DNA of 64,000 nt, taken from Planctomycetota bacterium. GTDB taxonomy: Bacteria; Planctomycetota; UBA8108; SXIK01. The notes beneath the pieces are model-generated. The model did not search any database, had not been told where the DNA came from, and saw only the letters and a list, made by a program, of their open reading frames with translations. The translations under genes were made by a program, and so were the position numbers. Location of the stretch: the NCBI GenBank assembly GCA_965223845.1, contig CBDCXR010000004.1:7488001-7552000 (forward strand). Direction: 5' to 3'. Position 1 is the stretch's first letter. Every line of letters begins with the position of its first letter. Positions 12,245 through 26,738 of this stretch are shown here, in pieces.

Positions 12245-13816
12245 TTGAATGGCCCAGTCGGAAACGTCAGTCTGAGAGGATGGCTGAGCGCTGCGCAGAG
12301 TCTTCTCGATCGCCTCTCCGCCACTCAGAAGATCGTTGTCGTCGTCGTCGCCGTGGCGGCAACCGTGGGGATGGCGTTCGTCGCGATCCGCGGGCGTCAA
12401 CCGGAGTACACGCGACTCGAGCTTGAGTCGGCCGCCGCGCGCTCGACGCTGACGGCGAAGCTCGACGAGAACGGGATCGCTTGGCGACCCGTCCCGAATG
12501 CCGAAACGCGACCCGCGATCGAGGTCCGCGCCGGCGAAGTCGCCAAGGCTCGCCGGTGGATCGAAGCGGCGTCGAGTTCCGAGGAGTCGGACGACGCGCT
12601 GTGGTCGGAATCACCGAGCTGGCTCGGCTTCGGTCCGCGACCCGGCGAGCTCGTCCTCCAAGCGAAGCTTCGTCGATTGCGCAACACGATCTGCTGGAAT
12701 CCGCGGATCGCCGAGGCGAGCGTCGAACACGAAGACTCCGACGACCGCGCGTTCGTCCGCGGGGAGAGTAGCGGGAGCGCGTCCGTCGTTCTCAAACTGA
12801 GTCCCGGTGTCGAGCGGCTGACCGTGCGCGAGGCGCAGGCCGTCCGGACGATCGTGAGCTCGGCGTTCGGCTTCCGGCCCGACAAGGTTCACGTCGTCGA
12901 CCACAAGATGCATCGCTACGACCTCGACGACGCCGAGACGGCGGCCGCCGAAGCTCGCTCGGAAGCGCTGCGCGCAGAAGTCGAGGAGCTCCTTCAGGAG
13001 CGATTCGACGACGCCGAGTTCCGCGTCTCGGTAAGCACGGTGCTTCGGGATACGGAGGCGAGAGTCGAAGCCGGCGCCGCGCCGCGCGCGAGTGGCGGTC
13101 TTCTCGGCGCACCGCAGTTGATCGCCCTCGCGAGGCCGGCTCCTGCGGTCGCACGGACCCGCGTCGCCGCACCGCGCCCCTCGTCGGCGTCCGCGGAGGC
13201 TGCGCGAACGAGATTCGTTCGGATCCGCGTCGATCGTTCGGCCGCTCTTCGCGTAGCGCGCGGGCGGGGCGAACTCGCCGGCAGCGTCGACACTGCGCTC
13301 CGCCGCTTCGAGGCGGGAGAGGCCGCGCGCATTCGCGATCGATTGATCGACCGATCGTCGCTCCATCTCTCCGTCACCGTCTTCGATTTCGGGTCCGTCG
13401 CGCGGCCCACGCCTTCCCGCGCGGTGTCCGAGCCGGCGACCGCGCCTCCCGCCGTCGCGTCGAATCCACCACCCGAGGAGGAGAGGATCTCCCTCGTCGA
13501 GCTTCTCAATCGCGAGCGTCGATGGCTCGGCCGGGCGAGCGTCGCGCTCGGTGTCGCGGTCGTCGTCGGCCTCGGCTATTGGCTGATTCGTCGTCGCCGC
13601 TCTGGTTCCGCGAGATCCGATCGCGACGAGCGCGGTCTCCCGCCGGCGCGGCCGAAGCGGATCGAAGAGCGCGCCGGCGACCGCGCGACTCCCGACGCAA
13701 TCGCATCGATCGACACGATGAGTGGGTGGGTCACGGAACGGCCGCAGTCGGCAGCGAACGTGCTCCGGGCATGGCTCGGATCCGATTCGGGACGCGAGGC
13801 AGGGGGCGAGCGATGA
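12245..13816 (+). CDS. fliF: Highly divergent FliF-like MS-ring protein
   Basis: TM1 (IVVVVVAVAATVGMAFVAI), RBM2-like SASVVLKLSPG...AVRTIVSSAFG...KVHVVD, TM2, C-terminal PQSAANVLRAWL; first gene before fliG; start uncertain. Confidence 0.7.
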   Translation: MNGPVGNVSLRGWLSAAQSLLDRLSATQKIVVVVVAVAATVGMAFVAIRGRQPEYTRLELESAAARSTLTAKLDENGIAWRPVPNAETRPAIEVRAGEVAKARRWIEAASSSEESDDALWSESPSWLGFGPRPGELVLQAKLRRLRNTICWNPRIAEASVEHEDSDDRAFVRGESSGSASVVLKLSPGVERLTVREAQAVRTIVSSAFGFRPDKVHVVDHKMHRYDLDDAETAAAEARSEALRAEVEELLQERFDDAEFRVSVSTVLRDTEARVEAGAAPRASGGLLGAPQLIALARPAPAVARTRVAAPRPSSASAEAARTRFVRIRVDRSAALRVARGRGELAGSVDTALRRFEAGEAARIRDRLIDRSSLHLSVTVFDFGSVARPTPSRAVSEPATAPPAVASNPPPEEERISLVELLNRERRWLGRASVALGVAVVVGLGYWLIRRRRSGSARSDRDERGLPPARPKRIEERAGDRATPDAIASIDTMSGWVTERPQSAANVLRAWLGSDSGREAGGER

Positions 13817-15039
13817 CCCGCGACGAGCTGCCATCCGTCTCGACTCGGGGCGCGGTCGGCGAGATCGAGGACGAAGCCGACGACGGGCACTCGCAGGCGT
13901 TCGGTCCCGCGGAGGAGTCCGAGTCGACGCTCGATGCGGGGGAGGGGGAAGCGCCGCTCGATCGAGACCTCGGCCTCGATCTCGCCAAAGGCGGTGGGGA
14001 CGGCGCCGACGGCTCTCCACTCGGCGGTCTCGAGGAGCTCGCCGACGACGAACGCGAGGTGGCCGGCGCGACGGATCGTCTCAGCGGGCTCGCGAAGGCC
14101 GCGGTGTTCATCCTCTCGCTCGACGAATCGGCCGCGTCGAACGTCCTTCGGTGCCTCTCCGACGAGGAGCTGAGTCGCGTCGCGGCCGAGATTGCCCACC
14201 TCGGCGTCGTCGACAAGGACACGGTCGAGGCCGTCCGCAGCGAGTTTCAAACGCTCGAGGTCGCGACGGGCGTCGTTCGCGAGGGGGGCGTCGAATCAGC
14301 GTCGCGCCTTCTCAGCCGATCGCTCCCTTCGTCCCGCGCTCGCCGGATGGTGCAGCTACTCGAAGCCGGTGGGACCCAGCGCCGCTTCGGTTTTCTCTCT
14401 CGCGTTCCGGTGTCGGGTCTCGTCGCGTACCTCCAGCGGGAGCGACCGCAGACGATCGCCGTCATTCTCGCCCACATGAGCCCCGCGACGGCGGCGGAGG
14501 TCATCGAGAGACTTCCCAATCACGTTCGCCGCAAGGTTCTTCCGTCGATCGCGAAGCTCCGTCGTGTGAACGACGAGGCGCTGCGCACGATCGAGTCGGC
14601 GCTTCGGCGTCAGTTCGAAGTCGCGCGCTGTGTGAAGCTGGGCGACGGGACGAAGACCGTCGCGGAACTCTTTCGCTCCGCCGGTCGCGAGCGCGCGGAG
14701 AAGTACTACGACGATCTGGAAGCCGCCTCCGGTGAGACGGCCGTGGCCGTACGCGACCACTTGTTCGATTTCCGCGATCTCATCCATCTCGAAGATCGAT
14801 TCCTGCGGCGCTCGCTCCGAACCGTCGATCGCCGCGAGCTCGCCGTCGCGCTCACGAACGTCGACTCGCGCGCGGAAGCCAAGGTCTTTCGCGCGCTGTC
14901 GCGCCGACGTGGAGCCGCCCTTCGGCGGGAGCGTCAGGCTCTCGGTCCGGTCCGTCTTTCCGACGTCGAGGTGGCGCAGCGAGCGGTCGCCGCGCGCATC
15001 GCCGAGTTTCGCCGCGGTCGCGAGGAGAAAGGCGCGTGA
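13813..15039 (+). CDS. fliG: Flagellar motor switch protein FliG-like
   Basis: LSGLAKAAVFILSL, ERPQTIAVILAHM, LFDFRDL, LGPVRLSDVEVAQ; ATGA overlap with fliF. Confidence 0.9.
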   Translation: MTRDELPSVSTRGAVGEIEDEADDGHSQAFGPAEESESTLDAGEGEAPLDRDLGLDLAKGGGDGADGSPLGGLEELADDEREVAGATDRLSGLAKAAVFILSLDESAASNVLRCLSDEELSRVAAEIAHLGVVDKDTVEAVRSEFQTLEVATGVVREGGVESASRLLSRSLPSSRARRMVQLLEAGGTQRRFGFLSRVPVSGLVAYLQRERPQTIAVILAHMSPATAAEVIERLPNHVRRKVLPSIAKLRRVNDEALRTIESALRRQFEVARCVKLGDGTKTVAELFRSAGRERAEKYYDDLEAASGETAVAVRDHLFDFRDLIHLEDRFLRRSLRTVDRRELAVALTNVDSRAEAKVFRALSRRRGAALRRERQALGPVRLSDVEVAQRAVAARIAEFRRGREEKGA

Positions 15040-16046
15040 ATCGGAACCGGGAGAACGTCGCTTCCACTTGCGAGCGAACGAGTCGAGCCGAGCTCTCGGC
15101 GGCGCAGCGCACCGAGTCGTCGGGCGGGCGATGGATCCGTCCCGTCGCCCCCGCGTCGACCGCGAGGTGTTCAAGCGGCGACGCTGCGCGACCGAGCGAC
15201 GACGTTTCCGCTGTGGCTTGGGACTCGATTCGCAGCGTTCGGGCTAGACTCGCAGAGCTCAGTCGGCGTGAACGCCGCCTCGAAGACGAGATCCGCCGGC
15301 GCTGGCGTCGTCTCGCCGGCAAGGCTTGGCGGCGACGCGCGGAGGCGGAGGCCGAGCTGCGCCTGCGCCGGGCGGAGCTCGAGGACGAGAACGAGCGCCG
15401 ACGGGAGCGAGCGGAACGAGAGGGAGAGGCGCGCGGATTCGAAGCTGGATTCGAGCGCGGCCGGGAGGAGGGGCGTCGCGTCGGCGCCGAGGCCGGGCGG
15501 AGAGCCGGACGGGAGGAGGGCGAACGAGAGGGGCGCGAACGAGGAGCGAAGGAGTCGCGCGCCGAGTTCGAGCGCGCGGCATCGAGTCTGCGTGCCGCTG
15601 CCGCCGCCCTCGGTGAACGACGTGAGCAGCTCGTTGCCGACGCGCGTGGATCCCTGCTCGAACTCGCGGTCGCGATCGCACGCAAGATCATCCGCGCTCG
15701 CGTCGACGTCGATCCGGAACTGGTCGGACGCACGGTCGCCGCCGCGGCGGAGCTCGTCGTCCGCAGCCGTGCCGTGACCGTCCAGGTGCATCCCGACGAC
15801 GCGCGCTTCGTGGAGCGCGAGCTCGGTGCGCGCCCGCCGTGGGCGGAGGGTTTCGCGAGCGTCGAGGTGAGGGCGTCGACCGGTGTCGACCGCGGCGGGT
15901 GCCGGCTGGTGACGGACGTGTCGTCGCTCGATCTTCGGATCGAAGCGCAGCTCTCGCAGATCGCCACCGCGATGGCGCGCGTGTACGGCGTGGAGCGGAT
16001 GGAATCTCCCTCGCTGGATCGGAAGGTGCCATGCGCGGATATCTAG
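15036..16046 (+). CDS. fliH: FliH/SctL-like export apparatus protein
   Basis: GxxxG repeat run (GFEAGFERGREEG...), LLELAVAIARKII, VQVHPDD, VDRGGCRL; lies between fliG and fliI. Confidence 0.8.
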   Translation: MNRNRENVASTCERTSRAELSAAQRTESSGGRWIRPVAPASTARCSSGDAARPSDDVSAVAWDSIRSVRARLAELSRRERRLEDEIRRRWRRLAGKAWRRRAEAEAELRLRRAELEDENERRRERAEREGEARGFEAGFERGREEGRRVGAEAGRRAGREEGEREGRERGAKESRAEFERAASSLRAAAAALGERREQLVADARGSLLELAVAIARKIIRARVDVDPELVGRTVAAAAELVVRSRAVTVQVHPDDARFVERELGARPPWAEGFASVEVRASTGVDRGGCRLVTDVSSLDLRIEAQLSQIATAMARVYGVERMESPSLDRKVPCADI

Positions 16047-17326
16047 ACATCGTCGCTGACGTCTACCCGGGCGTGCTCGAAGCGCGGATCGATCGCGTGT
16101 TCGGCACGACGGCGGAGAGTCGAGGTCTCACGGCCCCGCTCGGCGCGACTTGTGCGATCGAGTCGCGGTCCGGCCACCGCGTCGAGGCCGAGGTGATCGG
16201 TTGCCGGAAGAATCACGCGATCCTCGCTCCGATCGGAGAGTTGCGCGGTGTCGCCGCCGGCGATCGCGTCGTGTACCGCGGAACGAGCGGAGTCGTCCGA
16301 GTGGGGATGGATCTTCTCGGCTGCGCGGTCGATGCTTCCGGCCGATCTCTCGACTCGCGCGGGCACGAATCGCGCGGAGCACTCGTCCCCATCGAGCCCT
16401 GTGAGATCGAACCACGCCGCGCGCTTTCCGCCGAGCGATCGTTCGTCACCGGCGTCCGCGCGATCGACGGTTTGTTTCCGGTCGGACGGGGACACCGCGT
16501 CGCGGTCGTCGCCGCGCCGGGTCTCGGGACGACGACGCTCTTTCGCTCGATCGCAAATGGAGCCGTCGCCGACGCGATCGTTCTCGCGTTCATCGGTGGA
16601 AGTCGACAAGACGCGATCGAGCTCTTCGCAGCGGAGCTCGCCCCTGGCGTCCGCGCGCGGTCGGTCGCAGTGATCGCGGCTGACGATGAGCCGCCGCTCG
16701 CTCGTTCGCGTGCGGCGCTCACGGCGACCGCGATCGCGGAGTTCTTCCGCGCCGCCGGGAAAAACGTCCTCCTTCTCGTCGACTCGCTCTCCGCGAGCGT
16801 CGACGCGCACGCGACACTCGGCGCGGCCGGAGGCGAGCGCCGGGACCCGCGCGGAATCCCGCCGTCGTCGTTCCCGTGGATCGCTAGGCTCCTGGGTCGC
16901 TGCGGGCGAGCGCCGTCCGGCAGCCTCACGGGAATCTACGCCGTGGCGGCGCCCGGAAACGATTCCGGCGCGGAATCCGTCGTGACCGAGCGGGTGCGGG
17001 CGCTCGTCGACAGCGAACTTCGACTCTCGCGTCGTCTAGCCGAACGAGGTCACTACCCGGCGATCGACCTCGGGTCGAGCTTCGTGCGCGGTGCGGAGCG
17101 GGTCCGATCGGCCGAAGTGGACGCAGCTGCCCGCGGGCTGCGGTCGCGGTGGTTGCGCGAGGACGCCGCGAGGGAGGCGAGCGTCGACGCGCCGCGCGAG
17201 TCGCCGCTCGACGAATTTCTCCGCCAAGCGCCGTCGGCGCCTGAGCCGTACGAGGCGACGATCGCACAGCTCACCCAGTGCGGCGCCGCCTTCCGACGGA
17301 ACGATCGCCTTGAGCAAAGCGAGTGA
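16031..17326 (+). CDS. fliI: FliI/SctN-like export ATPase homologue with degenerate catalytic motifs
   Basis: TGVRAIDGL, AEFFRAAGKNVLLLVDS, LSRRLAERGHYPAID; Walker A reads APGLGTTT and the GERGRE site reads GGSRQD. Confidence 0.85.
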   Translation: MRGYLDIVADVYPGVLEARIDRVFGTTAESRGLTAPLGATCAIESRSGHRVEAEVIGCRKNHAILAPIGELRGVAAGDRVVYRGTSGVVRVGMDLLGCAVDASGRSLDSRGHESRGALVPIEPCEIEPRRALSAERSFVTGVRAIDGLFPVGRGHRVAVVAAPGLGTTTLFRSIANGAVADAIVLAFIGGSRQDAIELFAAELAPGVRARSVAVIAADDEPPLARSRAALTATAIAEFFRAAGKNVLLLVDSLSASVDAHATLGAAGGERRDPRGIPPSSFPWIARLLGRCGRAPSGSLTGIYAVAAPGNDSGAESVVTERVRALVDSELRLSRRLAERGHYPAIDLGSSFVRGAERVRSAEVDAAARGLRSRWLREDAAREASVDAPRESPLDEFLRQAPSAPEPYEATIAQLTQCGAAFRRNDRLEQSE

Positions 17327-17679
17327 GAGGTAAAGCCGACGTGGTCGCAAAAAAGGAATCGGGCGCCGTGAACGCACTCGAATCAGCTCCGGCAGGACCG
17401 GCGGGCGCAGACGACCGCTCGGGCTCGGAGTCGAGCGCAGCGTACCGCGGCATCCACTTGAGTGTCCGCGCGGAGCTCGGCCGTACGCGGATGAAGTTGA
17501 AGGACGCGGTGGAGCTCGAGGCCGGAGCGGTCGTCGATCTCGATCGGAAACCGGGCGATCCCGTCGACCTTCTCGTCGAAGGCGTGGTGATCGCGCGCGG
17601 AGTCGTGCTCGTCGTCGACGATTGTTTCTGCGTCCGAATCACCGAGGTCCTTTCGGAAAAGGAAGAGAGTGCACCATGA
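17323..17679 (+). CDS. fliN: Flagellar switch protein FliN
   Basis: SpoA domain: VRAELGRTRM...GAVVDLDRKPGDPVDLLVEGVVIARGVVLVVDDCFCVRITEV. Confidence 0.9.
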   Translation: MRGKADVVAKKESGAVNALESAPAGPAGADDRSGSESSAAYRGIHLSVRAELGRTRMKLKDAVELEAGAVVDLDRKPGDPVDLLVEGVVIARGVVLVVDDCFCVRITEVLSEKEESAP

Positions 17680-18332
17680 CGATGACCGCGAAGCGTCTCG
17701 TCCCAGGAATCGCGGCGCTGCTGATCCTCACGGGGATCGGTGCCGGTTCGGTTTCCGCCGATTCGACCGGCGGATTCGTTCGCGCGGGCGATTCGGTGAG
17801 CGACGTGCTCTCGGGCGCGCCATCGACCGAGAGCGACCGCGCGGAATCGAGTTTGGTCGGAGGTTGGCAGCTCGCCGGTCTCGGCGTCCTCCTCGTCGGT
17901 CTGGCGAGTTTCGCGTGGCGACTTCGTTCGCGCGGACTCGTTCGTCGGCGCGGCGCGTCGGAAGGGGGAACGATCACGATCGTCGATCGGGTCGCGCTCT
18001 CACCGCGGCATGCGGTGGCGGTGCTCCGGGTGTCGGAACGGACGCTCGTCGTCGGCTTTTCCGGTGATCGGGTCTCGCCTCTCGCTGAGTGGGGGGGCGA
18101 CGCGCTCGCCGGTGGCACGTCGGCAGAGACGGCGCCCGAGCGGCCGGAATCGTACTGGTTTCGCAACCCGCGCGACGCGAGCGGCGGCGCTCCCGAGACC
18201 ACGCTCGGGGCGAGCAGTGGATCGAGCGACGTTTGGGACCGCGACCTCGCCCCGTACCGGCGCGAAGTGACCCGGCTCAAAGAAGCGCTCGAGTCCTGGC
18301 GGGAGAATACCACGCCGCCTTCGAGCGAGTGA
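17676..18332 (+). CDS. fliO: FliO-like export gate assembly chaperone
   Basis: TM segment followed by ITIVDRVALSPRHAVAVLRVSERTLVVG; located between fliN and fliP. Confidence 0.75.
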   Translation: MTMTAKRLVPGIAALLILTGIGAGSVSADSTGGFVRAGDSVSDVLSGAPSTESDRAESSLVGGWQLAGLGVLLVGLASFAWRLRSRGLVRRRGASEGGTITIVDRVALSPRHAVAVLRVSERTLVVGFSGDRVSPLAEWGGDALAGGTSAETAPERPESYWFRNPRDASGGAPETTLGASSGSSDVWDRDLAPYRREVTRLKEALESWRENTTPPSSE

Positions 18333-18359
18333 CAGACGGGAAGGGATGGACGAGTAGGC

Positions 18360-19223
18360 GTGCGCATGGGAACGCGACGACAGCGAGGCGGCGGTACTCT
18401 GCGCGGTAGCGCGGCGAGAGCCGGCGCGGTCACGATCGCGTGGCTCGTCTTCGCCGCCGGCGCGCCCGAGGTGGTGTGCGCCGTCGAGCCGGCGGACGCC
18501 GACAGCGTCCTACGGAACCTCGTCGGTCTCGAGCCGAGCGGTGCGCCGATGGCGATGCGGGTGCTCGTGCTTGTCACCGTGCTCGGAATCGTGCCGTCGA
18601 TCATTCTCTTGACGACCTGTTTCCCGCGCATCTTGATCCTCCTTTCGTTCCTCCGCCGTGCGCTCGGAACCCAGGATCTCCCGCCGCAGTCGGTCGTCAC
18701 CGGGCTCGCGCTCGTTCTCACCGTCGTCGTCATGCTCCCCGTTTGGCGAGAAGTGCACGCGAAAGCGTACGCGCCGCTCGTCGCCGGCGAGATCGAGACC
18801 GTCGAAGAGGCGCTCGCGCGAGCCGAGCGGCCGATCAAGGAGTTCATGCTTCGGCAGACGCTGCGGCGCGATCTCGCGCTCATGCTCGAGATCTCCGGCG
18901 AGACGCCGGCGCCCGCGACCTCGTCCTCGACGACGGCGGCTCCGAGTGGGAACGCGAACGGCGAGATCGATGCGGCGGACCTGCCGATCTTCGTCGTCCT
19001 CCCCGCGTTCGTTCTGAGCGAGCTCAAGCTCGCGTTTCAGATGGGATTCCTCATCTTTCTGCCGTTCGTGGTCATCGATCTCGTCGTGTCGGCCGTGCTT
19101 CTTTCGATGGGGATGTTCATGCTGCCTCCCGTTCTGGTCTCGCTCCCGCTCAAAGTGCTCGTATTCGTGATGGTGGACGGCTGGAACCTCATCGTCGGTC
19201 AGATGCTGCAGAGCTTCGCCTAG
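18360..19223 (+). CDS. fliP: Export gate protein FliP
   Basis: TTCFPRILILLSFLRRALG, PAFVLSELK.AFQMGFLIFLPFVVIDLVVS..L.SMGMFMLPP...DGW. Confidence 0.95.
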   Translation: MRMGTRRQRGGGTLRGSAARAGAVTIAWLVFAAGAPEVVCAVEPADADSVLRNLVGLEPSGAPMAMRVLVLVTVLGIVPSIILLTTCFPRILILLSFLRRALGTQDLPPQSVVTGLALVLTVVVMLPVWREVHAKAYAPLVAGEIETVEEALARAERPIKEFMLRQTLRRDLALMLEISGETPAPATSSSTTAAPSGNANGEIDAADLPIFVVLPAFVLSELKLAFQMGFLIFLPFVVIDLVVSAVLLSMGMFMLPPVLVSLPLKVLVFVMVDGWNLIVGQMLQSFA

Positions 19224-19251: not shown

Positions 19252-19521
19252 ATGGACATCGAGATCGCCGTCGAACTTTGCCGCCGCGCACTCGCGCTCG
19301 CGATGCAGATCGGCCTTCCGATTCTCACGGTGGGCCTCGTGGTGGGTCTCGTCGTCAGCGTCGCGCAGGCGGCGACTCAGATCCAGGAACAGACGCTCTC
19401 CTTCATCCCGAAGATGGCAGCGATGGTCGCGGCCGTGTTCTTGCTTCTTCCGTGGGTGCTCTCGGTCGTGACGACCTACACGCACCAAGTGCTCAGCCGC
19501 CTCGCGAGCGGGGGGCCGTGA
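19252..19521 (+). CDS. fliQ: Export gate protein FliQ
   Basis: GLVVGLVVSVAQAATQIQEQTLSFIPK. Confidence 0.95.
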   Translation: MDIEIAVELCRRALALAMQIGLPILTVGLVVGLVVSVAQAATQIQEQTLSFIPKMAAMVAAVFLLLPWVLSVVTTYTHQVLSRLASGGP

Positions 19522-20451: not shown

Positions 20452-20483
20452 GGTGACCGGATCGCCATTCGGGATGATCTGCC

Positions 20484-21287
20484 GTGAGTGACACGACCGA
20501 AAGAACCGAACGAGCGACCCAGAAGCGGCGCGAAGAAGCGCGCGCACAAGGGCGCATCCCGAAGAGCCGAGACCTCGTGCTCGCGCTCTCGCTCGTCGGG
20601 AGCTTCCTCCTGCTTCGGGCGGCGGGGGGACCCGTGGGCGACGATCTCCTCGGGTTCGTTCGAAGGTCCTTCGCCGAATTGAGCACCGCTTCCGAGCTCC
20701 GGACCTTCGACGTCCATGCCGTGCTCGTAGCGGGGATCGGCGTGTTCACGTCGGCCGTTCTCCCGTTCGCCCTCGTCGCCCTCGGAGTGACGATCGCGTC
20801 CTTCGTCGTCCAGGGGGTCTTCGTGCCGGCACCGCACTTGGTCCTCCCGCGGCCCGCACGGCTTCATCCGCTCGAAGGGATCCGCCGAACCGTTCGCCTC
20901 GAGAGTCTCGCGCTCGTTGGCTTCGCACTCCTCAAGCTCGCTCTCGTAGCGGGGTTTCTTTGGACTGCGATCGCGTCCGCCCTGGTCGACCCGAGCACCG
21001 TGACCGTGAAGAACGGGCGCTTTCTCACGCCGGAGGCGCTCTCCTCGTTCGGACTCGCGCTCGCGTGCGGACTCGCCGGCGCGGCGCTTCTCGACGTGAT
21101 CGTTCAGCGTTGGCTTTACGAGCGAAGCTTGCGCATGACCCCGGCGGAAGTGCGGGAAGAGGCGCAGGAGATGGAAGGGAACAGCAGCGTCAAGCGACAG
21201 CGGCGCCGCTTTTCGCGCTCGCTTCAGGGCGCCGGTCACGATCGTGTCGAGTCCGCTCCGCCGCTCGCCGGAGGGGGTGAGAGATGA
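20484..21287 (+). CDS. flhB: FlhB-like protein lacking the cytoplasmic NPTH domain
   Basis: ERTERATQKRREEARAQGRIPKSRDL, TM region, LRMTPAEVREEAQEMEGNSSVK then stop at 267 aa; no NPTH. Confidence 0.85.
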   Translation: MSDTTERTERATQKRREEARAQGRIPKSRDLVLALSLVGSFLLLRAAGGPVGDDLLGFVRRSFAELSTASELRTFDVHAVLVAGIGVFTSAVLPFALVALGVTIASFVVQGVFVPAPHLVLPRPARLHPLEGIRRTVRLESLALVGFALLKLALVAGFLWTAIASALVDPSTVTVKNGRFLTPEALSSFGLALACGLAGAALLDVIVQRWLYERSLRMTPAEVREEAQEMEGNSSVKRQRRRFSRSLQGAGHDRVESAPPLAGGGER

Positions 21288-23485
21288 GCGCCGCACGCCG
21301 GCCGGCTTCCGCATCGAGTCGATTCGCCTGGAGCTCTCCGTCGATGCACCGTCAGCCGCCGCTCTTTGCACCGCGATCGGCCGGAAACTCCGATCTCGCC
21401 GTTGTCGCCGCGCTCCTCGGGATCCTCTTCGTCATTCTTGTTCCGCTCCCGACGTGGCTGATCGACGGCCTTCTCGTCGTCAATGTCGTCGCATCGCTTC
21501 TTATCCTGATGACGACTGCTTGTCTCTCCGCTCCGCTCGAGTTCAGCGTGTTTCCGTCGGTCCTCTTGATCGCGACCTTCTTTCGGCTCGCACTCAACAT
21601 CGGGACGACGCGACTCATCCTCGGGGGAGACGGCGGTGCGACCGCCGCCGGCGGCGTCATCGAGGCATTCTCGACCTTCGTGGCCGGAAGCAATCTCGGC
21701 GGCGGCAGCGGGAGCAATCTCATCGTCGGACTGATTGTGTTCGCGATCATCATGGTCGTTCAGTTCGTCGTCATCACGAAAGGGACGACCCGCGTCTCCG
21801 AGGTGACCGCTCGGTTCACACTCGACGCGATGCCGGGGAAGCAGATGAGCATCGACAGCGATCTCGCTGCGGGTCTCATCGACGACGCGACCGCGCGCGA
21901 GCGACGCCGTGAGGTGAGTCGCCAAGCCGAGTTCTACGGCGCGATGGACGGGGCGAGCAAGTTCGTGCGCGGCGAGGCCCTCGCGGGCCTCGTCATCACG
22001 CTCGTCAACGTCGGCGCGGGTTTCCTCGTGGGCGTCTTCCACCACGGATTCTCGGTGGGGGACTCCGCGGAAATCTTCACCCGCCTCACGATCGGCGACG
22101 GCCTCGTGAGTCAAATCCCCGCGCTCATGGTCTCGGTCGCGACGGCGCTCATCGTGACGAAGAACGCGGCGGGGGAGAACCTGGGTCGCGACCTCTGGGA
22201 CCAGCTCTTCGCGAACGACCGAATCCTCTTCATGGTGTCGGCGTTTCTCCTCCTGCTCATCCCCTCGGGAATTCCGGCCGAGGCGCTCATCCTCGGCGCG
22301 ATTCTCTGCGGCGGGTTTGCGTTTCACTTGCGGAGACGACGTACTTCGGACGAGCGCGGCGAGTTCGAGGACGAGGAGGAAGAATTCGCCCTCGAAACCG
22401 GCGAGGCAGCGGGCGTCGAGCAGGAAGACGTTCGTTCACTCCTCGCCGTGGAGTCGATCGAGCTCGAGCTCGGCTTCCGCCTCGTCGGTCTCGTGGACGA
22501 GGAGCGTGGCGGAGACTTACTCGAGCGGATCGCGCGCGTGCGCGAGCGCGTTGCGATCGAGCTCGGATTCGTTCTGCCGCCGATTCGAGTTCACGACAAC
22601 ATCCGCGTGCGTCCGACGGAGTACACGATTCGACTCCGGGGAAACTCGCTCGGATGTTGGCGCGTCTATCCCGATCGATGGTTCGCGCTTCGCGGACCGG
22701 GAGTCGATGACGATGTCGAGCTCGAAGGAATCTCGGGTCGCGATCCACTCACGGGGGAAGCCGGCGTGTGGATCGACGACGATCGATCGCCTGCGGCCGG
22801 TCGCGCCGGGTGGACGGTGCGATCGGTGGCCGAGCTCCTCAGCGATCACCTCGAGAGCTTCGTCCGCTCCCACTCCTTCGAGATCTTGAGCCGCGAAGAA
22901 GTCGCGCGACTCGTCGCAGACCTCCGCACGCGCGCGCCGGTCGTCGTCGACGAGCTCATCCCCGCCCAGATGAAGCTCGGGCAGATCCACCGAGTTCTCG
23001 AGGAACTTCTGCGCGAGAACGTGAGCGTGCGCGACCTCGAGACGATCCTCACGGCGCTCGCCGACGCGCGGGAAGCGGGGGTGACCGAGATCGACGGGCT
23101 CGTCGCGCGGGTGCGGCGAGCGCTCGCGCGAACGATCTGCGGATCGGTCGCGGATGCCGAGCGGCGAATCCACGGCCGCCGGATCGACCCGGAGCTCGAG
23201 GACTTCCTCGCCGCCTCGATCCAGAGCGAAGCGCGACGGTTCGCACTCGCGCCGGGCGTCGCCGAATCGCTGGCGGGGACGCTCGCCGCCTCCCTCTCCG
23301 CCGGCGTCGATCGCGCCGGGGGAGTCGTGTTGTGCTCGGCGGCGATTCGCGCGCCGCTCCAGCGGCTCCTTCGCGAGACAGCCGGCCGCGCGACGGTGAT
23401 CGCGTACGACGAAGTGTGTGAAGGGTACCGGATCGAGTCTGCCGGATCGATCCGATTGGAAGAACTCGAACGAGCACTTTCGTAG
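21284..23485 (+). CDS. flhA: Export apparatus protein FlhA
   Basis: FRLALNIGTTRLIL, RVSEVTARFTLDAMPGKQMSIDSDL, FYGAMDGASKFVRG, TIGDGLVSQIP; alternative start ATG 21344. Confidence 0.95.
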   Translation: MSAARRPASASSRFAWSSPSMHRQPPLFAPRSAGNSDLAVVAALLGILFVILVPLPTWLIDGLLVVNVVASLLILMTTACLSAPLEFSVFPSVLLIATFFRLALNIGTTRLILGGDGGATAAGGVIEAFSTFVAGSNLGGGSGSNLIVGLIVFAIIMVVQFVVITKGTTRVSEVTARFTLDAMPGKQMSIDSDLAAGLIDDATARERRREVSRQAEFYGAMDGASKFVRGEALAGLVITLVNVGAGFLVGVFHHGFSVGDSAEIFTRLTIGDGLVSQIPALMVSVATALIVTKNAAGENLGRDLWDQLFANDRILFMVSAFLLLLIPSGIPAEALILGAILCGGFAFHLRRRRTSDERGEFEDEEEEFALETGEAAGVEQEDVRSLLAVESIELELGFRLVGLVDEERGGDLLERIARVRERVAIELGFVLPPIRVHDNIRVRPTEYTIRLRGNSLGCWRVYPDRWFALRGPGVDDDVELEGISGRDPLTGEAGVWIDDDRSPAAGRAGWTVRSVAELLSDHLESFVRSHSFEILSREEVARLVADLRTRAPVVVDELIPAQMKLGQIHRVLEELLRENVSVRDLETILTALADAREAGVTEIDGLVARVRRALARTICGSVADAERRIHGRRIDPELEDFLAASIQSEARRFALAPGVAESLAGTLAASLSAGVDRAGGVVLCSAAIRAPLQRLLRETAGRATVIAYDEVCEGYRIESAGSIRLEELERALS

Positions 23486-23551
23486 AGAGACCGAACGCCG
23501 GGCGAAGCGCTCGGTGACGCGGGTCCGACGTTTAGGAAGGAAGAGAAAGCT

Positions 23552-24799
23552 ATGACGTTTCGCCTCACTCGTATCGAGGCGCCGACCATGGATGAAGCGC
23601 TCGATAAGGTGCGCGACATGTTCGGCAGCGATGCGATGATCGTGAGCTCTCGCACGTTTCGTCGCGGGGGCGTGCTCGGCTTCGGTGGCCGCGAAGTTGT
23701 CGAGGTGTTCGCCGCCGACACGCGTTCGCGGATCGAGAACGTCGAGCGCGAGCGATCGAATCGCGTCCGGCCAGAGGACTCCAGCCCGGCCGCGGTGCTG
23801 AGTCGCTCTCCGAAGCCGGGCTCGGGCGGCGAGAGCGCGAACGGGGGCACGGGGAAAGCGAGCGGCGGTGCGGAGGCGGAGAACGGAGCCGCGTCCGCGG
23901 GGGGCAAAGGTCCGGCGTTCGAGGAGTTCGCGAGCGCGCTCGGACAGATTCGAGCCGAGATTCGCCAGTTCGTCTCGCGGACCGGCGGAGTGCATCACTA
24001 CAACCATCCGTTCCTCGCCGAGTGCTACGACCTCCTCGTCACGTGTGAGGTCGACGCTCAGGTCGCGGATCGCATCGTCCAGCTCATCTCCCACCTCAAC
24101 ATCCCGGACGGCTTCCCGGATCCGTCGCGCGTGCGCTCGGTCGTGCAAGCGCAGCTCGCGAAGCTGTTCGTCCCTCCGGCCGCCGCCGATGCGACGAAGA
24201 AGCCGCAGTTGATCTCTCTCATCGGGCCGACGGGCGTCGGGAAAACGACGACGATCGCCAAGCTCGCCGCGCGGGCGAAGATCAACGAGGGGCTGAGCGT
24301 CGGACTCGTCACGCTCGACACCTTCCGCATCGCCGCCATCGATCAACTCGAGAAATATGCGGAGATCATCGGGCTGCCGATGGCCGTCGCAACGCAGCCG
24401 CAGGAACTCGTCGAGGTCATCGACGAGTTTCGCGAGCGCGGAGTCGACCTCGTCTTCGTCGACTCCGCGGGAAGGAGTCATCGCGATGAGATGAAGATGG
24501 CGGAGCTTCGCGCATTCCTTTCCGTTCTACCGGATGTCGAGGTGCACCTCGTCCTCAGCACGACGACCCACGGCTCGACTCTCGAGAACGTCGCGAGTCG
24601 ATTCGCCGGCATCGGCTTCGATCGCCTGATCCTCACCAAGGTGGACGAGTCCGTCTCGTTCGGCGCACTCGTGAAGACGCTCCTCGCGATCGGTCGCCCG
24701 GTCTCGTTCGTCACCGACGGGCAGAACGTTCCGGACGACATCCTTCCCGGCGATCCGAACCGGCTCGCCAGTCTGGTTCTGAAGACGAAGGCGCAATGA
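23552..24799 (+). CDS. flhF: SRP-family GTPase FlhF
   Basis: GPTGVGKTTTIAKLAA, DTFRIAAIDQL, DSAG, TKVDE, GQNVPDD. Confidence 0.95.
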   Translation: MTFRLTRIEAPTMDEALDKVRDMFGSDAMIVSSRTFRRGGVLGFGGREVVEVFAADTRSRIENVERERSNRVRPEDSSPAAVLSRSPKPGSGGESANGGTGKASGGAEAENGAASAGGKGPAFEEFASALGQIRAEIRQFVSRTGGVHHYNHPFLAECYDLLVTCEVDAQVADRIVQLISHLNIPDGFPDPSRVRSVVQAQLAKLFVPPAAADATKKPQLISLIGPTGVGKTTTIAKLAARAKINEGLSVGLVTLDTFRIAAIDQLEKYAEIIGLPMAVATQPQELVEVIDEFRERGVDLVFVDSAGRSHRDEMKMAELRAFLSVLPDVEVHLVLSTTTHGSTLENVASRFAGIGFDRLILTKVDESVSFGALVKTLLAIGRPVSFVTDGQNVPDDILPGDPNRLASLVLKTKAQ

Positions 24800-24803
24800 G
24801 GGC

Positions 24804-25661
24804 GTGACGATGGACCAGGCAGAGAATCTCAGGAATCTGGTGAGGGGCACCGAGAGCCGGGCGCGCTTCCTCGCCGTCACCAGCGGAAAAGGGGGGGTCG
24901 GGAAGACCAATCTCGCCGTCAACCTGGGCGCGGCGATGAGCCGTCTCGGGAAGAAGGTGATCCTCGTCGACGTCGACATCGGCCTCGCGAACGCGGACGT
25001 GATGTTATCGGTCGCTCCGCGGCTCAATCTCGGCCACGTCCTCGCGGGCGAGGTCTCGGTGCTCGAGGTGCTGACGCCGACGCCGAGCGGGGTCCTTCTC
25101 CTCCCCGGATGCGTGGGAATGCGGCACGTTTCCGATCTCGACGATCACGAGCGCGAGTTCCTCGTGCGCGGCTTTCAAGAGCTGGAGGCCTACGCCGACA
25201 TCGTCCTCATCGACACCGGCGCAGGAATTTCTCGGAATGTCGTTCAGTTTGCGTCCGCATGTGACGAGATCTTGATAGTGACGATGCCGGAACCTACCGC
25301 GATGACGGACGGTTACGCCGTGATCAAGGCGGTCGCCCGCGAAAAGGGTCGCGGGAAGATCCGGCTCATCGTCAACCAGTGCCGCGATCGAGCCGACGCC
25401 CGCCGCGTGAGCGAGCGGATCCGTATGGTCTCGAAGCGGTTTCTCGGCATCGAGGTCGAGGATCTCGGCTACGTGGTGACGGATGAGATCGTTGGACAGT
25501 CCGTGCGGGAGAGACGTCCATTCGTGCTCGAGTACCCGCGGAGTCCCGTGACGCGCTGCGTATGGGAGATCGCCGGACGCTTGGTCGCGCCCGAGAACGC
25601 GCCCGCGAGCGGTGGGGTGTTCCGCCGTTTCGCCCGCGCGCTCACGAGTGTGCTCGGTTGA
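24804..25661 (+). CDS. flhG: MinD-like ATPase FlhG/FleN
   Basis: N-terminal DQAENLR, SGKGGVGKTN, DIGLAN, DTGAG, PEPTAMTDGY. Confidence 0.95.
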   Translation: MTMDQAENLRNLVRGTESRARFLAVTSGKGGVGKTNLAVNLGAAMSRLGKKVILVDVDIGLANADVMLSVAPRLNLGHVLAGEVSVLEVLTPTPSGVLLLPGCVGMRHVSDLDDHEREFLVRGFQELEAYADIVLIDTGAGISRNVVQFASACDEILIVTMPEPTAMTDGYAVIKAVAREKGRGKIRLIVNQCRDRADARRVSERIRMVSKRFLGIEVEDLGYVVTDEIVGQSVRERRPFVLEYPRSPVTRCVWEIAGRLVAPENAPASGGVFRRFARALTSVLG

Positions 25662-25718
25662 CCGAATCGCGGATCCGATTCGATCCGTTCGGGGGAAGAG
25701 AAGATTCCAGCGAAGAGA

Positions 25719-26738
25719 ATGAGGGGAGGTACTCCGGTGAGCGGAGTCCGAGGAACCAAAGCAGGACGGTCATCCGGGAGCCAGACGGCGACTGCCACCA
25801 AGCGATCGCGGCTGGAATCGGGCGGAGAGACGTCGGCGACGACGACACTCCCGCGAAAGTCTCGACTCTCGTCTACGCGAGGCGGAGTGGCGACGCGCAG
25901 CAGTGGGAAGAGCGAGGCCGCGGCGGAGACGACCACCGCGACGAAGAGAACGCGAAAGCGCAAGATCGCCGGAGATCCGAGCGAGATCGAAGCCGTTTGG
26001 AAAGAGTTCAAGAAGACGGGCGACCAGCGGCTCCGCAATCTGCTCATCGAGCGGTACCTGCCGCTCGTCAAGTACATCGCTGAACGCCTTCTCGCAAAGC
26101 TCCCGCAGAACATCGAGCTCGACGATCTGACGAGCGCGGGGATCTTCGGGCTGATGGACGCCGTCAAGGGCTACGACCTCAGCCGCGGCGTAAAGTTCGA
26201 AACCTACTGCACGACTCGCATTCGCGGCGCGATCCTCGACGAGCTGCGCTCGCTCGACTGGGTCCCGCGGATCGTTCGGAACAAGGCGAACCGCATCGAG
26301 AACACCTGGAAGACGCTCGAGATGGAGCTCGGGCGCTCGCCGACGGACATGGAGATGGCCCGCCATCTCGAAATGACGCCCGAGGAGTACCAGGACATGA
26401 TCCGCGAGGCGAGTGCGATCACGATCGTGAGCCTCACGGACAAGACGAAGGACGATCAGGGCTCGAAGAGCCTGCGAAAGATCGATGTCCTCGAGGACAA
26501 GAAGGGAATCGACCCCGAGTACGAGCTGAAGCGGAAGGAAATCACGGACTTCATCACCCGCGGTCTCAGTCGGAAGGAGCGCCTCATCCTCCTTCTCTAC
26601 TACTACGAAGACCTCACGATGCGGGAGATCGGCGCGACGCTCAGTCTCTCGGAGTCGCGCGTCTGTCAGCTTCACTCGCGCATCATCTTCCGGCTGAAGA
26701 ATCAGCTGAAGAAGTACCAGTCGGAGCTGCTGAGCTAG
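25719..26738 (+). CDS. fliA: Sigma-28 (FliA/WhiG) RNA polymerase sigma factor
   Basis: RIRGAILDELRSLDWVPR, YYYEDLTMREIG..L.LSESRVCQLHS; basic low-complexity N-terminal extension, start uncertain. Confidence 0.95.
   Translation: MRGGTPVSGVRGTKAGRSSGSQTATATKRSRLESGGETSATTTLPRKSRLSSTRGGVATRSSGKSEAAAETTTATKRTRKRKIAGDPSEIEAVWKEFKKTGDQRLRNLLIERYLPLVKYIAERLLAKLPQNIELDDLTSAGIFGLMDAVKGYDLSRGVKFETYCTTRIRGAILDELRSLDWVPRIVRNKANRIENTWKTLEMELGRSPTDMEMARHLEMTPEEYQDMIREASAITIVSLTDKTKDDQGSKSLRKIDVLEDKKGIDPEYELKRKEITDFITRGLSRKERLILLLYYYEDLTMREIGATLSLSESRVCQLHSRIIFRLKNQLKKYQSELLS

What the first reader, a model, noticed from the sequence alone, without database searches (positions are those of the whole stretch)
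12245..26738. Substrate-less, ATPase-dead flagellum-derived basal-body operon: candidate repurposed system
Seen: 14 co-oriented genes (fliF-G-H-I-N-O-P-Q-R-flhB-flhA-flhF-flhG-fliA), many joined by stop/start overlaps, with no frameshift or internal stop visible over 14.5 kb. fliI overlaps fliN directly, and fliF is preceded by a promoter and a MerR gene. Established: in Bacillus-type fla operons flgB/flgC/fliE precede fliF, and fliJ/fliK/flgD/flgE/fliL/fliM lie between fliI and fliN/fliY. All of these axial, ruler and motor-coupling genes are missing from this operon. Three parts needed to build an axial structure are also degenerate (FliI catalysis, FlhB switch domain, FliF collar), while FliP/Q, the FlhA channel, FlhF, FlhG and sigma-28 remain canonical. 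Inference: this is not a motility flagellum but a maintained MS/C-ring plus export gate. It could be a PMF-only periplasmic exporter, an ion channel, or a polar landmark. It parallels, but differs from, the fliF/fliI/flhA/sigma-28 remnant of Chlamydia.
Basis: partly seen in the sequence, partly recalled or inferred. Interest (0 to 1): 0.92.

Follow-up and report, generated by a model that had tools for sequence, protein, structure and literature searches.

The report
Flagellum core kept without a flagellum
This bacterium, and most of its relatives, has lost every part of the flagellum outside the cell membrane but keeps the membrane export machine, its positioning proteins and its sigma/anti-sigma pair, so the remnant probably now does a non-motility job.

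Summary
The 14-gene operon is real: fliF-G-H-I-N-O-P-Q-R-flhB-flhA-flhF-flhG-fliA, 12245-26738. The nearly closed 7.93 Mb genome has no flagellin, rod/hook, FliE, FliS, FliJ or MotB-plug match.

- fliM and the anti-sigma gene flgM do exist, elsewhere in the genome.
- FlhB lacks its whole C-terminal domain, and this holds in 29 of 32 flagellin-less relatives.
- The dead FliI ATPase is private to this genus. 19 of the 31 other flagellin-less relatives have a canonical FliI, and one genus has none.

Among 41 genomes of the class, FlhA is in 39 and sigma-28 in 37, but flagellin and rod are in the same 9 only. FlhA identities suggest at least two independent reductions.

Best reading: a maintained export gate without an axial structure, naturally locked in "late" mode. 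This matches Salmonella flhB C-terminal truncations that export FlgM into the periplasm without rod or hook (PMC13344023). It would act as a FlgM/sigma-28 switch positioned by FlhF/FlhG.

I rate it a new variant of a known kind. Expression and export are untested.

The parts
10900..11715 (+). MerR-type HTH regulator ORF upstream of the operon. A neighbour; membership doubtful.
   Evidence: Pfam MerR 40 bits and MerR_1 34 bits at residues 197-254. No similarity to the ORF upstream of fliF in relative G001.
11892..11920 (+). Sigma-70-like promoter candidate, TTTACA-N17-TAGAAT, in an AT-rich gap before fliF.
   Evidence: It is the only such site in 10700-27200; sequence read. This is a consensus match only.
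12245..13816 (+). fliF, MS-ring protein. Divergent, with deletions in the second (RBM3/collar) half. The FliG-binding C-terminus is kept.
   Evidence: YscJ_FliF 45 bits. TIGR00206 scores 33 bits against a cut-off of 130. Alignment A3 shows gaps relative to G001 and G005, and an invariant C-terminal RP..A..VLR.W.
13813..15039 (+). fliG, rotor/C-ring protein with N, M and C domains.
   Evidence: FliG_N 102, FliG_M 88 and FliG_C 92 bits, all over cut-off. 43% identical to G003 FliG. My first ORF choice, 13722-14735, was a wrong frame.
15036..16046 (+). fliH, regulator/stator of the export ATPase.
   Evidence: Pfam FliH 74 bits. 36% identical to G003 FliH, E 7e-42.
16031..17326 (+). fliI homologue with its catalytic motifs destroyed (start uncertain, 15839-16031).
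   Evidence: ATP-synt_ab 173 bits. TIGR01026 scores 257.7 bits against a cut-off of 379.5. Walker A reads AAPGLGTTT where 7 of 7 relatives have GSGVGKS/GTGVGKS. IGGSRQDA replaces IGERGREV (IGERSREV in two). The same substitutions appear against EscN 6njo.
17323..17679 (+). fliN, C-ring protein.
   Evidence: FliMN_C 73 bits. TIGR02480 scores 81.5 bits against a cut-off of 84.
17622..18332 (+). fliO (start uncertain).
   Evidence: Pfam FliO 38 bits.
18360..19223 (+). fliP, export gate.
   Evidence: Pfam FliP 233 bits. TIGR01103 scores 219.7 bits, over the 217.45 cut-off and above the SctR model at 169.
19252..19521 (+). fliQ, export gate.
   Evidence: TIGR01402 scores 92.3 bits, over the 88.9 cut-off.
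19630..20451 (+). fliR, export gate.
   Evidence: Bac_export_1 147 bits. TIGR01400 scores 124 bits, against 67 for the SctT model.
20484..21287 (+). flhB, transmembrane part plus linker only. No autocleaving C-terminal domain.
   Evidence: PF01312 is matched at positions 2-239 of 335. The protein ends about 20 residues after EGNSSVKRQRRR. Its stop overlaps the flhA start, so no remnant can follow. Alignment A4 places the end before NPTH. There is a single PF01312 match in the genome.
21284..23485 (+). flhA, export gate / PMF-coupled ring, full length.
   Evidence: FHIPEP 715 bits. TIGR01398 FlhA scores 694 bits against 490 for hrcV. Invariant MPG.Q..ID.D block in alignment A2.
23552..24799 (+). 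flhF, SRP-type GTPase that places flagellar assembly.
   Evidence: TIGR03499 scores 202 bits, over the 174 cut-off. 74% identical to G003, with GTPase motifs invariant.
24804..25661 (+). flhG, MinD-type ATPase partner of FlhF.
   Evidence: MinD/ParA-type matches. 60% identical to G003. N-terminal DQA..LR and the P-loop are invariant in 6 of 6 sequences.
25719..26738 (+). fliA, sigma-28 (FliA/WhiG family).
   Evidence: TIGR02479 scores 260 bits, over the 189.6 cut-off. The family is over cut-off in 37 of 41 genomes of the class.

Best explanation
The operon encodes a maintained, flagellum-derived type III export gate with no axial structure.

Shown:
- The genome keeps the MS ring (FliF), rotor/C-ring proteins (FliG and FliN here, FliM elsewhere), the FliOPQR-FlhB(TM)-FlhA gate, FlhF/FlhG, sigma-28 and the anti-sigma factor FlgM.
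- It has no match to rod, hook, FliE, flagellin, FliS, FliJ or the MotB plug.

Inferred mechanism:
1. FlhF/FlhG place and count the assembly.
2. FliF and FliG house the gate.
3. FlhB lacks the C-terminal domain that docks early (rod/hook) substrates and blocks late ones. The gate therefore sits permanently in late mode.
4. Export is driven by proton-motive force through FlhA. In this genome the FliI ATPase is catalytically dead and at most structural.
5. The cargo is FlgM, possibly with other late-type proteins, released into the periplasm. Sigma-28 activity then reports on gate assembly or activity and drives a non-flagellar regulon.

In short, it is a secretion-coupled transcription switch left over from the flagellar checkpoint.
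For: - Gene content and family matches. Flagellar models beat injectisome models for FlhA, FliP, FliQ, FliR and FliH, and narrowly for FliN.
- Genome-wide absences with positive controls.
- FlgM is present and carries a sigma-28-type promoter in this genome and in G003. G011 has one in front of fliA.
- Across 41 genomes of the class:
  - FlhA in 39, sigma-28 in 37, FlgM in 28. Flagellin and rod domain occur in the same 9.
  - FlhB is cut at profile position about 240 in 27 genomes, plus 2 fragmentary cases. All 29 lack flagellin.
- In the own order, FlgM is in 17 of 18 reduced genomes.
- FlhF (74% to G003) and FlhG (60%) are better conserved than FlhA (55%), and their catalytic and activator motifs are invariant.
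- The most reduced genus keeps only FliF, a FliG_N-only protein, FliOPQR, FlhB(TM), FlhA, FlhF, FlhG, sigma-28 and FlgM. That is the set the model needs.
- Elsewhere in the phylum loss is usually total: 52 of 121 sampled genomes have no FlhB. Retention here therefore looks selected.
- Experimental analogue (PMC13344023, abstract and sections 6-7 read): a rod/hook-less, flk-less Salmonella strain with flhB stopped at residue 258, or with residues 270-383 deleted, secretes FlgM-Bla into the periplasm. Secretion needs fliP and does not need FliK. The same truncation no longer exports the early substrate FlgE-Bla.
Against: - No expression, export or localisation data exist. No RNA run was listed.
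- FlgM was not found in any of the 11 reduced genomes of family f6, although they keep sigma-28 and the gate. FlgM export cannot be the universal role unless a divergent anti-sigma was missed.
- The strict sigma-28 promoter pattern gave only three hits in this genome. One is inside a gene and one lies opposite a long ORF, and no coherent regulon emerged.
- In Salmonella the truncated gate needed overexpression and loss of Fluke. The truncation here removes more than the Salmonella CCD.
- This genome's FliI, FliJ and FliF show lineage-specific decay, which fits weakening selection on part of the machine.
- The retained FliG C-domain, FliM and FliN have no role in the model.
- Independence of the reductions rests on pairwise identities, not on a tree.
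Confidence: 0.45

Rival explanations
1. A general protein exporter. The gate exports non-flagellar cargo (enzymes, adhesins, envelope proteins) into the periplasm or beyond, as proposed for the flagellin-less Lysobacter enzymogenes and for Buchnera basal bodies. FlgM and sigma-28 only regulate it.
For: - The whole gate, with full-length FlhA including its cytoplasmic ring, is conserved in 39 of 41 genomes.
- Most reduced lineages keep a canonical FliI: 19 of the 31 flagellin-less relatives score over the TIGR01026 cut-off. G023 keeps FliH and FliJ as well.
- Family f6 keeps the gate without a detectable FlgM.
- Precedent: L. enzymogenes OH11 FT3SS-dependent secretion of a protease, a glucanase and a dehalogenase-family protein (PMC7688988, abstract read).
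Against: - No candidate cargo, chaperone (no FliS match) or outer-membrane conduit was found.
- There is no rod, so cargo would end in the periplasm, which Sec and Tat already serve.
- One genus has no ATPase, FliH, FliN or FliM.
- OH11 still has hook-type proteins (FlgD is secreted there), unlike this system.
Confidence: 0.2
2. A non-export role. The MS ring, gate and FlhF/FlhG act as a polar landmark or scaffold (for budding, holdfast, pili or chemoreceptor placement), or as an FlhA-based ion conduit. Protein export has been lost.
For: - FlhF and FlhG are the best conserved members, with intact GTPase/ATPase and DQA..LR motifs.
- The early-substrate docking domain of FlhB is gone.
- In this genome the ATPase is dead.
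- FliF's FliG-binding end and FliG are kept.
Against: - A landmark would not need FliP, FliQ, FliR, FliO and the FlhB transmembrane part, yet FlhB is in 41 of 41 genomes. FliP and FliQ here pass equivalog cut-offs.
- Retention of the export substrate FlgM in 17 of 18 reduced genomes of the own order is not explained.
- There is no direct evidence for either role.
Confidence: 0.15
3. Slow decay. The operon is a relic of a recently lost flagellum with no present function, on its way to deletion.
For: - In this genome FliI has lost its catalytic residues and evolves fast. It is 39% identical to G003, whereas G003 and G001 share 67%.
- FliJ is missing and FliF carries deletions.
- Different lineages have lost different parts: C-ring in f6, ATPase and C-ring in genus g5.
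- High G+C content makes long open frames less informative.
Against: - The same core is intact across 32 flagellin-less genomes in 12 genera (own included). FlhA identities run down to 36-38% with catalytic blocks still invariant.
- Sigma-28 scores as high in reduced genomes as in flagellated ones.
- FlhF is 74% identical between genera.
- Stop/start coupling is preserved and there are no internal stops.
- Other lineages of the phylum that lost flagella lost FlhB entirely (52 of 121).
Confidence: 0.08
4. A hidden flagellum. Axial and filament genes exist but were missed, because they are too divergent or lie in unassembled sequence.
For: Marker completeness is 91.7%. Pfam models can miss divergent small proteins such as FliE or FliJ.
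Against: - One contig holds 7.87 of 7.93 Mb.
- Relative G003 is a single 9.2 Mb contig and also lacks them.
- The same models find flagellin at E 1e-30 and rod domains in all 9 flagellated relatives of the same class.
- The operon itself shows clean excision. It is 2.7 kb between fliJ and flhB in G023, against 11 kb carrying flgE and motB in flagellated G036.
- FlhB lacks the domain needed to export early substrates.
Confidence: 0.02

Closest known systems
Salmonella fT3SS locked in late-secretion mode by flhB C-terminal truncation (laboratory mutants; Chevance et al., mBio 2026, PMC13344023)
   Same: - Rod and hook proteins are absent.
- FlhB ends before or at the autocleaved C-terminal domain.
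- FlgM and sigma-28 are retained.
- In Salmonella this state exports FlgM-Bla into the periplasm through FliP, without FliK, and no longer exports early substrates (sections 6-7 read).
   Different: - That is an engineered strain. It needed loss of Fluke and overexpression of basal bodies.
- This is a natural state conserved across many genera.
- The truncation here removes the whole folded C-domain, not only residues 270-383.
- Export has not been shown here.
Flagellin-less FT3SS of Lysobacter enzymogenes OH11 (PMC7688988 and PMC7277350, abstracts read)
   Same: A non-flagellated bacterium that keeps expressed flagellar type III export genes. These are reported to serve non-motility functions (secretion of antifungal proteins, control of twitching).
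   Different: - OH11 lacks a functional fliC but still has hook-type substrates (FlgD is secreted) and an active FliI.
- Here all axial families tested are absent, the FlhB C-domain is deleted, and FliI is dead in this genome.
Chlamydial flagellar remnant (FliF, FliI, FlhA; PMC2830194, abstract seen in a search listing)
   Same: Flagellar export-type proteins kept in a non-flagellated member of the wider PVC group.
   Different: - Chlamydiae keep only a few scattered genes beside a complete injectisome. That they also keep a sigma-28 is recalled, not seen in any call.
- Here a full 14-gene operon with FliOPQR, FlhB(TM), FlhF and FlhG is the only type III system found: one FlhA, one FlhB and one FliI-type match.
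Buchnera aphidicola flagellar basal bodies without filament (recalled, not read here)
   Same: Loss of flagellin and motor function with retention of the export apparatus; a transport role has been proposed.
   Different: As I recall it, Buchnera keeps rod and hook genes and builds hook-basal bodies. This system has no rod or hook family match at all.
Needle-less non-flagellar T3SS of Myxococcus xanthus with FliO (PMC12248157, passages read)
   Same: A type III gate with a FliO homologue and no external appendage, in a non-flagellated bacterium.
   Different: That system is of the injectisome type. Here the flagellar models win for every gate protein, and FlhF, FlhG, FliG, FliM, FliA and FlgM are present.

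Membership tests
Bacterial flagellum (motility organelle) | Flagellin filament | tested here: not met
   PF00669 gives 0 matches in the genome. It gives matches at E 1e-25 to 1e-34 in 9 flagellated relatives and 4 control genomes.
Bacterial flagellum (motility organelle) | Rod and hook proteins (FlgB/C/F/G/E/K with the Flg_bb_rod domain) and FliE | tested here: not met
   PF00460 gives 0 matches. PF02049 gives 0 in G000, G003, G011 and G023, and a match in control G036.
Bacterial flagellum (motility organelle) | Stator (MotA/MotB) | tested here: not met
   PF13677 MotB_plug gives 0 matches in the genome and is found in 9 of 9 flagellated relatives. MotA itself was not searched.
Bacterial flagellum (motility organelle) | MS ring and switch complex (FliF, FliG, FliM, FliN) | tested here: met
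   FliF is weak. FliG has three domains. FliN. FliM is encoded elsewhere in the genome.
Flagellar type III export apparatus (fT3SS) | FlhA and FliP/Q/R of flagellar rather than injectisome type | tested here: met
   Scores in bits, flagellar model against injectisome model: FlhA 694 vs 490, FliP 220 vs 169, FliQ 92 vs 60, FliR 124 vs 67.
Flagellar type III export apparatus (fT3SS) | FlhB with an autocleaving NPTH C-terminal switch domain | tested here: not met
   Only profile positions 2-239 of 335 are matched, and the protein ends before NPTH. There is no separate C-domain ORF in the genome.
Flagellar type III export apparatus (fT3SS) | Active FliH/FliI/FliJ ATPase complex | tested here: not met
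   FliH is present. FliI lacks the Walker A Lys and the ERGRE Glu, and scores below cut-off. FliJ was not found. The names and roles of the motifs are recalled.
Injectisome (non-flagellar T3SS) | Secretin, needle, SctD and translocators | not tested
   No dedicated search was run. Nothing of the kind lies in the operon. The Yop-YscD_cpl match at 2609-4126 is the FHA domain of a GAF/HD protein.
Sigma-28 / FlgM regulatory module | FliA-family sigma factor | tested here: met
   TIGR02479 scores 260 bits, over the 189.6 cut-off. Found in 37 of 41 relatives.
Sigma-28 / FlgM regulatory module | FlgM anti-sigma factor | tested here: met
   PF04316 scores 34.8 bits, over the 25 cut-off. The ORF is 91 aa at L110:1396-1671.
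Sigma-28 / FlgM regulatory module | Sigma-28-type promoter (TAAA-N15/16-GCCGATAA; consensus recalled) before a regulon gene | tested here: met
   TAAAG-N15-CCCGATAA lies about 55 nt before the flgM start codon in this genome. TAAA-N16-GCCGATAA lies before flgM in G003, with similar flanks. Reversed-pattern controls gave 0 hits in both genomes. Use of the promoter is not shown.
Sigma-28 / FlgM regulatory module | FlgM exported through the gate | not testable with these tools
   Needs a secretion assay. The only analogue is Salmonella.
FlhF/FlhG placement system | SRP-type GTPase FlhF and MinD-type FlhG with an N-terminal activator motif | tested here: met
   FlhF TIGR03499 is over cut-off. GTPase motifs are invariant. 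FlhG has D4 Q5 A6 L9 R10 and the P-loop invariant in 6 of 6. The meaning of the motif is recalled.

The most novel reading that the evidence does not exclude
A whole class of Planctomycetota has turned the flagellar assembly checkpoint into a free-standing signalling organelle, at least twice independently.

- It is a polar type III gate with no rod, positioned by FlhF/FlhG and locked in late mode by natural deletion of the FlhB C-domain.
- Its job is to export the anti-sigma factor FlgM, or an analogue, so that a sigma-28 regulon reads out membrane energisation or assembly.
- Its minimal natural form is FliF, FliG_N, FliOPQR, FlhB(TM) and FlhA, with no ATPase and no C-ring. That would be a natural demonstration that type III export needs neither.
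Probability: 0.3. Interest if true: 0.85.

Novelty: new variant of a known kind. Interest (0 to 1): 0.74.

Why it matters
Flagellar loss is usually read as all-or-nothing decay. In this case a defined core survives in most sampled genomes of a bacterial class: the gate, the FlhB membrane part, FlhF/FlhG and sigma-28, often with FlgM. Every axial, filament and stator family tested is gone.

The shared lesion is loss of the FlhB C-domain. In 2026 the same lesion was shown in Salmonella to lock the machine into late-substrate export without rod, hook or ruler. These organisms are therefore natural experiments on three open questions:
- what the minimal type III export machine is;
- whether export needs the ATPase or the C-ring;
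- how a structural assembly checkpoint can become a regulatory device.

The system also gives a route, other than the injectisome, by which a flagellum is co-opted. It suggests a function for sigma-28 in non-motile planctomycetes. For annotation, it warns that "flagellar assembly" gene calls in these genomes do not predict motility.

Tried and rejected
- **Wrong frame for fliG.** I first took 13722-14735 as fliG. It had no Pfam or NCBIfam hit, only weak Atlas features and no similarity to G003. Its arginine-rich translation showed it was a wrong frame. The true gene is 13813-15039.
- **Injectisome reading.** Rejected, because flagellar models score higher throughout.
- **Taxon.** The genome-contig scan returned only about 40% identical FlhA from many phyla and no near relative. 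The phylum was inferred from 51 PSD1 domains and no FtsZ match.
- **Sigma-28 regulon.**
  - Pattern scans gave 0 hits in the window.
  - Whole-genome counts for the shorter pattern were no higher than the reversed control.
  - For the longer pattern there were 3 hits in this genome against 0 in the control.
  - ORFs downstream of 9 of the 22 pattern hits (flgM, fliA and repeat-copy hits left out) were a GH57, a GHL10, an ornithine cyclodeaminase with the hit inside the gene, and unknowns. No coherent regulon emerged.
- **MerR gene.** It is not conserved upstream in G001.
- **Expression.** No RNA holder was listed.
- **Literature.** Searches found no paper describing this reduced system in Planctomycetota. 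The library lacks most subscription journals, and supplements are closed. The FliO survey (PMC12248157) cites Supplementary Data 2, which I could not see and which may list such genomes.
- **Not done.** Trees, dN/dS and tblastn of a flagellated relative's proteins against the genome were planned, but could not be run.
- **Not used.** Structure prediction, fold search, complex prediction, the search for homologous proteins and the search of protein representatives.

Full report
**What is in the window.** Between 12245 and 26738 the + strand carries fourteen genes.
- Pfam and NCBIfam identify them as fliF, fliG, fliH, fliI, fliN, fliO, fliP, fliQ, fliR, flhB, flhA, flhF, flhG and fliA.
- Four junctions (fliF/G, fliG/H, fliI/N, flhB/A) are four-base stop/start overlaps, and no gene has an internal stop.
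- Upstream lie a MerR-type ORF (10900-11715), a terminator-like hairpin and an AT-rich gap. The gap holds the only sigma-70-like site of the region, TTTACA-N17-TAGAAT at 11892-11920.
- I first mis-assigned fliG to a wrong frame (13722-14735). The true gene is 13813-15039 and has FliG_N, M and C domains, all over cut-off.
- The system is of the flagellar, not the injectisome, type. The flagellar models outscore the injectisome ones for FlhA (694 vs 490 bits), FliP, FliQ, FliR, FliH and FliN. FlhF and the FliA/WhiG sigma pass their curated cut-offs.

**The three lesions.**
- *FlhB.* It is 267 aa and covers positions 2-239 of the 335-position family profile. It ends about 20 residues after the conserved EG.P..K.RRR linker, before the NPTH site seen in full-length relatives. 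Its stop overlaps the flhA start, so no remnant can follow. No other PF01312 match exists in the genome.
- *FliI.* It keeps the fold-level match but reads AAPGLGTTT where seven relatives have GSGVGKS or GTGVGKS. It reads IGGSRQDA for IGERGREV (IGERSREV in two relatives), and DSLSASVDAHATLG where relatives have DS(L/V)TRVA.AQRE.G. The same substitutions appear against the solved EscN. That these are the Walker A lysine and the catalytic glutamate is recalled knowledge.
- *FliF.* It matches only the YscJ_FliF part (45 bits), scores 33 bits against an equivalog cut-off of 130, and has gaps in its second half relative to G001 and G005. It keeps both membrane segments and the conserved C-terminal RP..A..VLR.W.

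**Whole genome.** The window lies on a 7.87 Mb contig of a 7.93 Mb, 4-contig assembly with 91.7% marker completeness.
- There is no match to flagellin, the rod/hook N-terminal domain, FliE, FliS, FliJ or the MotB plug. Each search found its target in control genomes and in flagellated relatives.
- There is one FlhA, one FlhB and one FliI-type ATPase. The other ATPase matches come in adjacent pairs that I take to be F1 alpha and beta, an inference.
A 384-aa FliM with FliM and FliMN_C domains lies at about 586 kb beside enolase. A 91-aa FlgM lies about 6.3 kb before the window start.
- 51 PSD1 domains and no FtsZ match point to Planctomycetota, which is also an inference.

**Relatives.** I searched forty-one genomes of the same class (6 families, 21 genera).
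- FlhA is in 39, FlhB in 41 and sigma-28 over cut-off in 37.
- Flagellin and the rod domain occur in the same 9 genomes only.
- Among the 32 genomes without them, FlhB is cut at profile position 233-251 in 27. It is fragmentary at contig ends in 2 and full length in 3 (genus g13, where NPTH reads NPSE in G022).
- Of the 9 flagellated genomes, 8 have full-length FlhB and one shows only a C-terminal fragment.
- Stand-alone FlhB C-domain ORFs occur only in flagellated genomes.
- FliI is canonical (over 520 bits) in 29 genomes, including 19 of the 31 other flagellin-less genomes. This genome alone has a degenerate copy (258 bits). The ten genomes of genus g5 have none.
- FliM is in 16: the 9 flagellated genomes, all 4 of this family and 3 others. 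FlgM is in 28: all 9 flagellated, 17 of 18 reduced genomes of this order, 2 of 3 in g13 and 0 of 11 reduced genomes of family f6.

**Locus anatomy**.

| Genome | Gene order |
|---|---|
| G005 (flagellated) | flgB ... fliF-G-H-I-J, a 509-aa ORF, a 148-aa ORF, an 823-aa hook-type ORF, then further ORFs down to flhB and flhA. ORFs other than flgB, flgE, fliI, flhB and flhA are named by position and size only. |
| G001, G003 (this family) | As in this window, plus a small ORF after fliI |
| G023 (family f6) | A 645-aa protein of unknown family, then fliH-I-J-O-P-Q-R-flhB(TM)-flhA-flhF-flhG-sigma |
| G011 (genus g5) | fliF, a 202-aa FliG_N-only protein, then fliO-P-Q-R-flhB(TM)-flhA-flhF-flhG-sigma |

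The invariant core is therefore the gate, the FlhB membrane part, FlhF, FlhG and sigma-28.

**Selection and origins.**
- FlhA stays full length, and blocks such as MPG.Q..ID.D are invariant at identities down to 36%.
- FlhF is 74% and FlhG 60% identical between this genome and G003. GTPase, P-loop and N-terminal DQA..LR residues are invariant in six genomes.
- FliI behaves differently. It is 67% identical between G003 and G001 but only 39-41% between them and this genome, while FlhA is 50% and 53-55%. FliI has therefore accelerated in this lineage only.
- FlhA of a reduced f6 genome is closer to FlhA of a flagellated genome of the same family (45%) than to reduced systems of this order (36-38%). 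This suggests at least two independent reductions, but it is not a tree.
- In a sample of 121 genomes of the phylum, 52 have no FlhB at all. Clear truncated forms occur only in this class, in the three truncated-form genomes of this class that the sample included. One further case is ambiguous because it sits at a contig end, and one extra short copy sits beside a full-length gene.

**Mechanism.**
- The FlhB C-domain is where early (rod/hook) substrates dock. I read the abstract and sections 6-7 of a 2026 Salmonella study (PMC13344023).
  - In a strain without rod/hook genes and without Fluke, a stop at FlhB residue 258, or deletion of residues 270-383, allows FlgM-Bla to be secreted into the periplasm.
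  - This secretion depends on fliP and does not depend on FliK.
  - The same deletion abolishes export of the early substrate FlgE-Bla.
- The natural system here has the same configuration and keeps FlgM and sigma-28.
- A sigma-28-type promoter (TAAAG-N15-CCCGATAA) sits before flgM in this genome. TAAA-N16-GCCGATAA sits before flgM in G003, with similar downstream sequence. G011 has one between flhG and fliA.
- I therefore propose a gate locked in late mode and driven by proton-motive force. It exports FlgM and so couples sigma-28 activity to the assembly or activity of a machine positioned by FlhF/FlhG.
- What is shown: gene content, conservation, the lesions and the promoter motif.
- What is inferred: assembly, export, energy source and regulon.

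**Against this reading.**
- Family f6 keeps the gate and sigma-28 without a detectable FlgM.
- No coherent sigma-28 regulon emerged.
- There is no expression evidence.
- The Salmonella mutants needed overexpression.
- This genome shows decay of FliI, FliJ and FliF.
- FliG_C, FliM and FliN have no role in the model.
- The rivals are a general periplasmic exporter, a non-export landmark or channel, slow decay and a hidden flagellum.

**Comparison and novelty.**
- The nearest natural cases are the flagellin-less FT3SS of Lysobacter enzymogenes (which still has hook-type substrates and an active ATPase), the chlamydial FliF/FliI/FlhA remnant, Buchnera basal bodies (recalled) and the needle-less injectisome-type systems of Myxococcus.
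- None of these combines loss of every axial family with deletion of the FlhB C-domain and retention of FlhF/FlhG, sigma-28 and FlgM.
- Seven literature searches found no description of this system in Planctomycetota. The library is incomplete and supplements were closed.
- I file it as a new variant of a known kind: a flagellum-derived type III system put to a non-motility use.

Noticed in passing
G000:C4:586023-586574 (outside the window; locus L107:9735-10889, - strand): A solitary fliM (384 aa, FliM and FliMN_C domains) lies beside enolase and upstream of a HEAT-repeat ORF. Its first ~100 residues are low-complexity, and I could not see the usual N-terminal CheY-binding peptide (motif recalled).
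   Followed up: partly
Relatives G007, G021, G025, G036, G037 and many genomes of the phylum: Flagellated genomes carry an extra stand-alone ORF of about 90-200 aa that matches only the FlhB C-domain (profile positions 261-335). No reduced genome has one.
   Followed up: no
L098:8730-9824 (G022, genus g13): Genus g13 lacks flagellin, rod and FliM but keeps a full-length FlhB. Its autocleavage site reads NPSE instead of NPTH. This may be an intermediate stage of the reduction.
   Followed up: partly
L099:14401-16338 (G023, - strand): A 645-aa ORF sits in the fliF position of the f6 reduced operon and has no Pfam match. No fliG or fliN is present in that locus.
   Followed up: no
G003:C1 at 912139, 2361511, 2376111 and 3476045: Four identical copies of TAAAGAAAGACACCTCCGCTACCGATAA. 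This is probably a repeated element that carries a sigma-28-like motif.
   Followed up: no
window 41123-42103 (-) and 43757-46933 (-): A Ras/Arf-like small GTPase ORF lies near a 1058-aa protein with DUF4388, TPR, PEGA and PQQ beta-propeller domains. The pairing resembles polarity/motility GTPase modules (recalled).
   Followed up: no
window 2609-4126 (-): An FHA-GAF-HD domain protein. Its FHA domain also matches the T3SS YscD cytoplasmic-domain family, but it is not part of the operon.
   Followed up: no
window 4410-5390 (+): A 4-HFC-P synthase (methanofuran biosynthesis type) homologue, 176 bits.
   Followed up: no
window 34671-36083 (-) and 36693-40481 (+): Glutamine synthetase lies next to a 1262-aa GlnE-type adenylyltransferase.
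   Followed up: no
whole genome G000: 51 PSD1-domain ORFs and no FtsZ match. I used this to infer Planctomycetota.
   Followed up: partly
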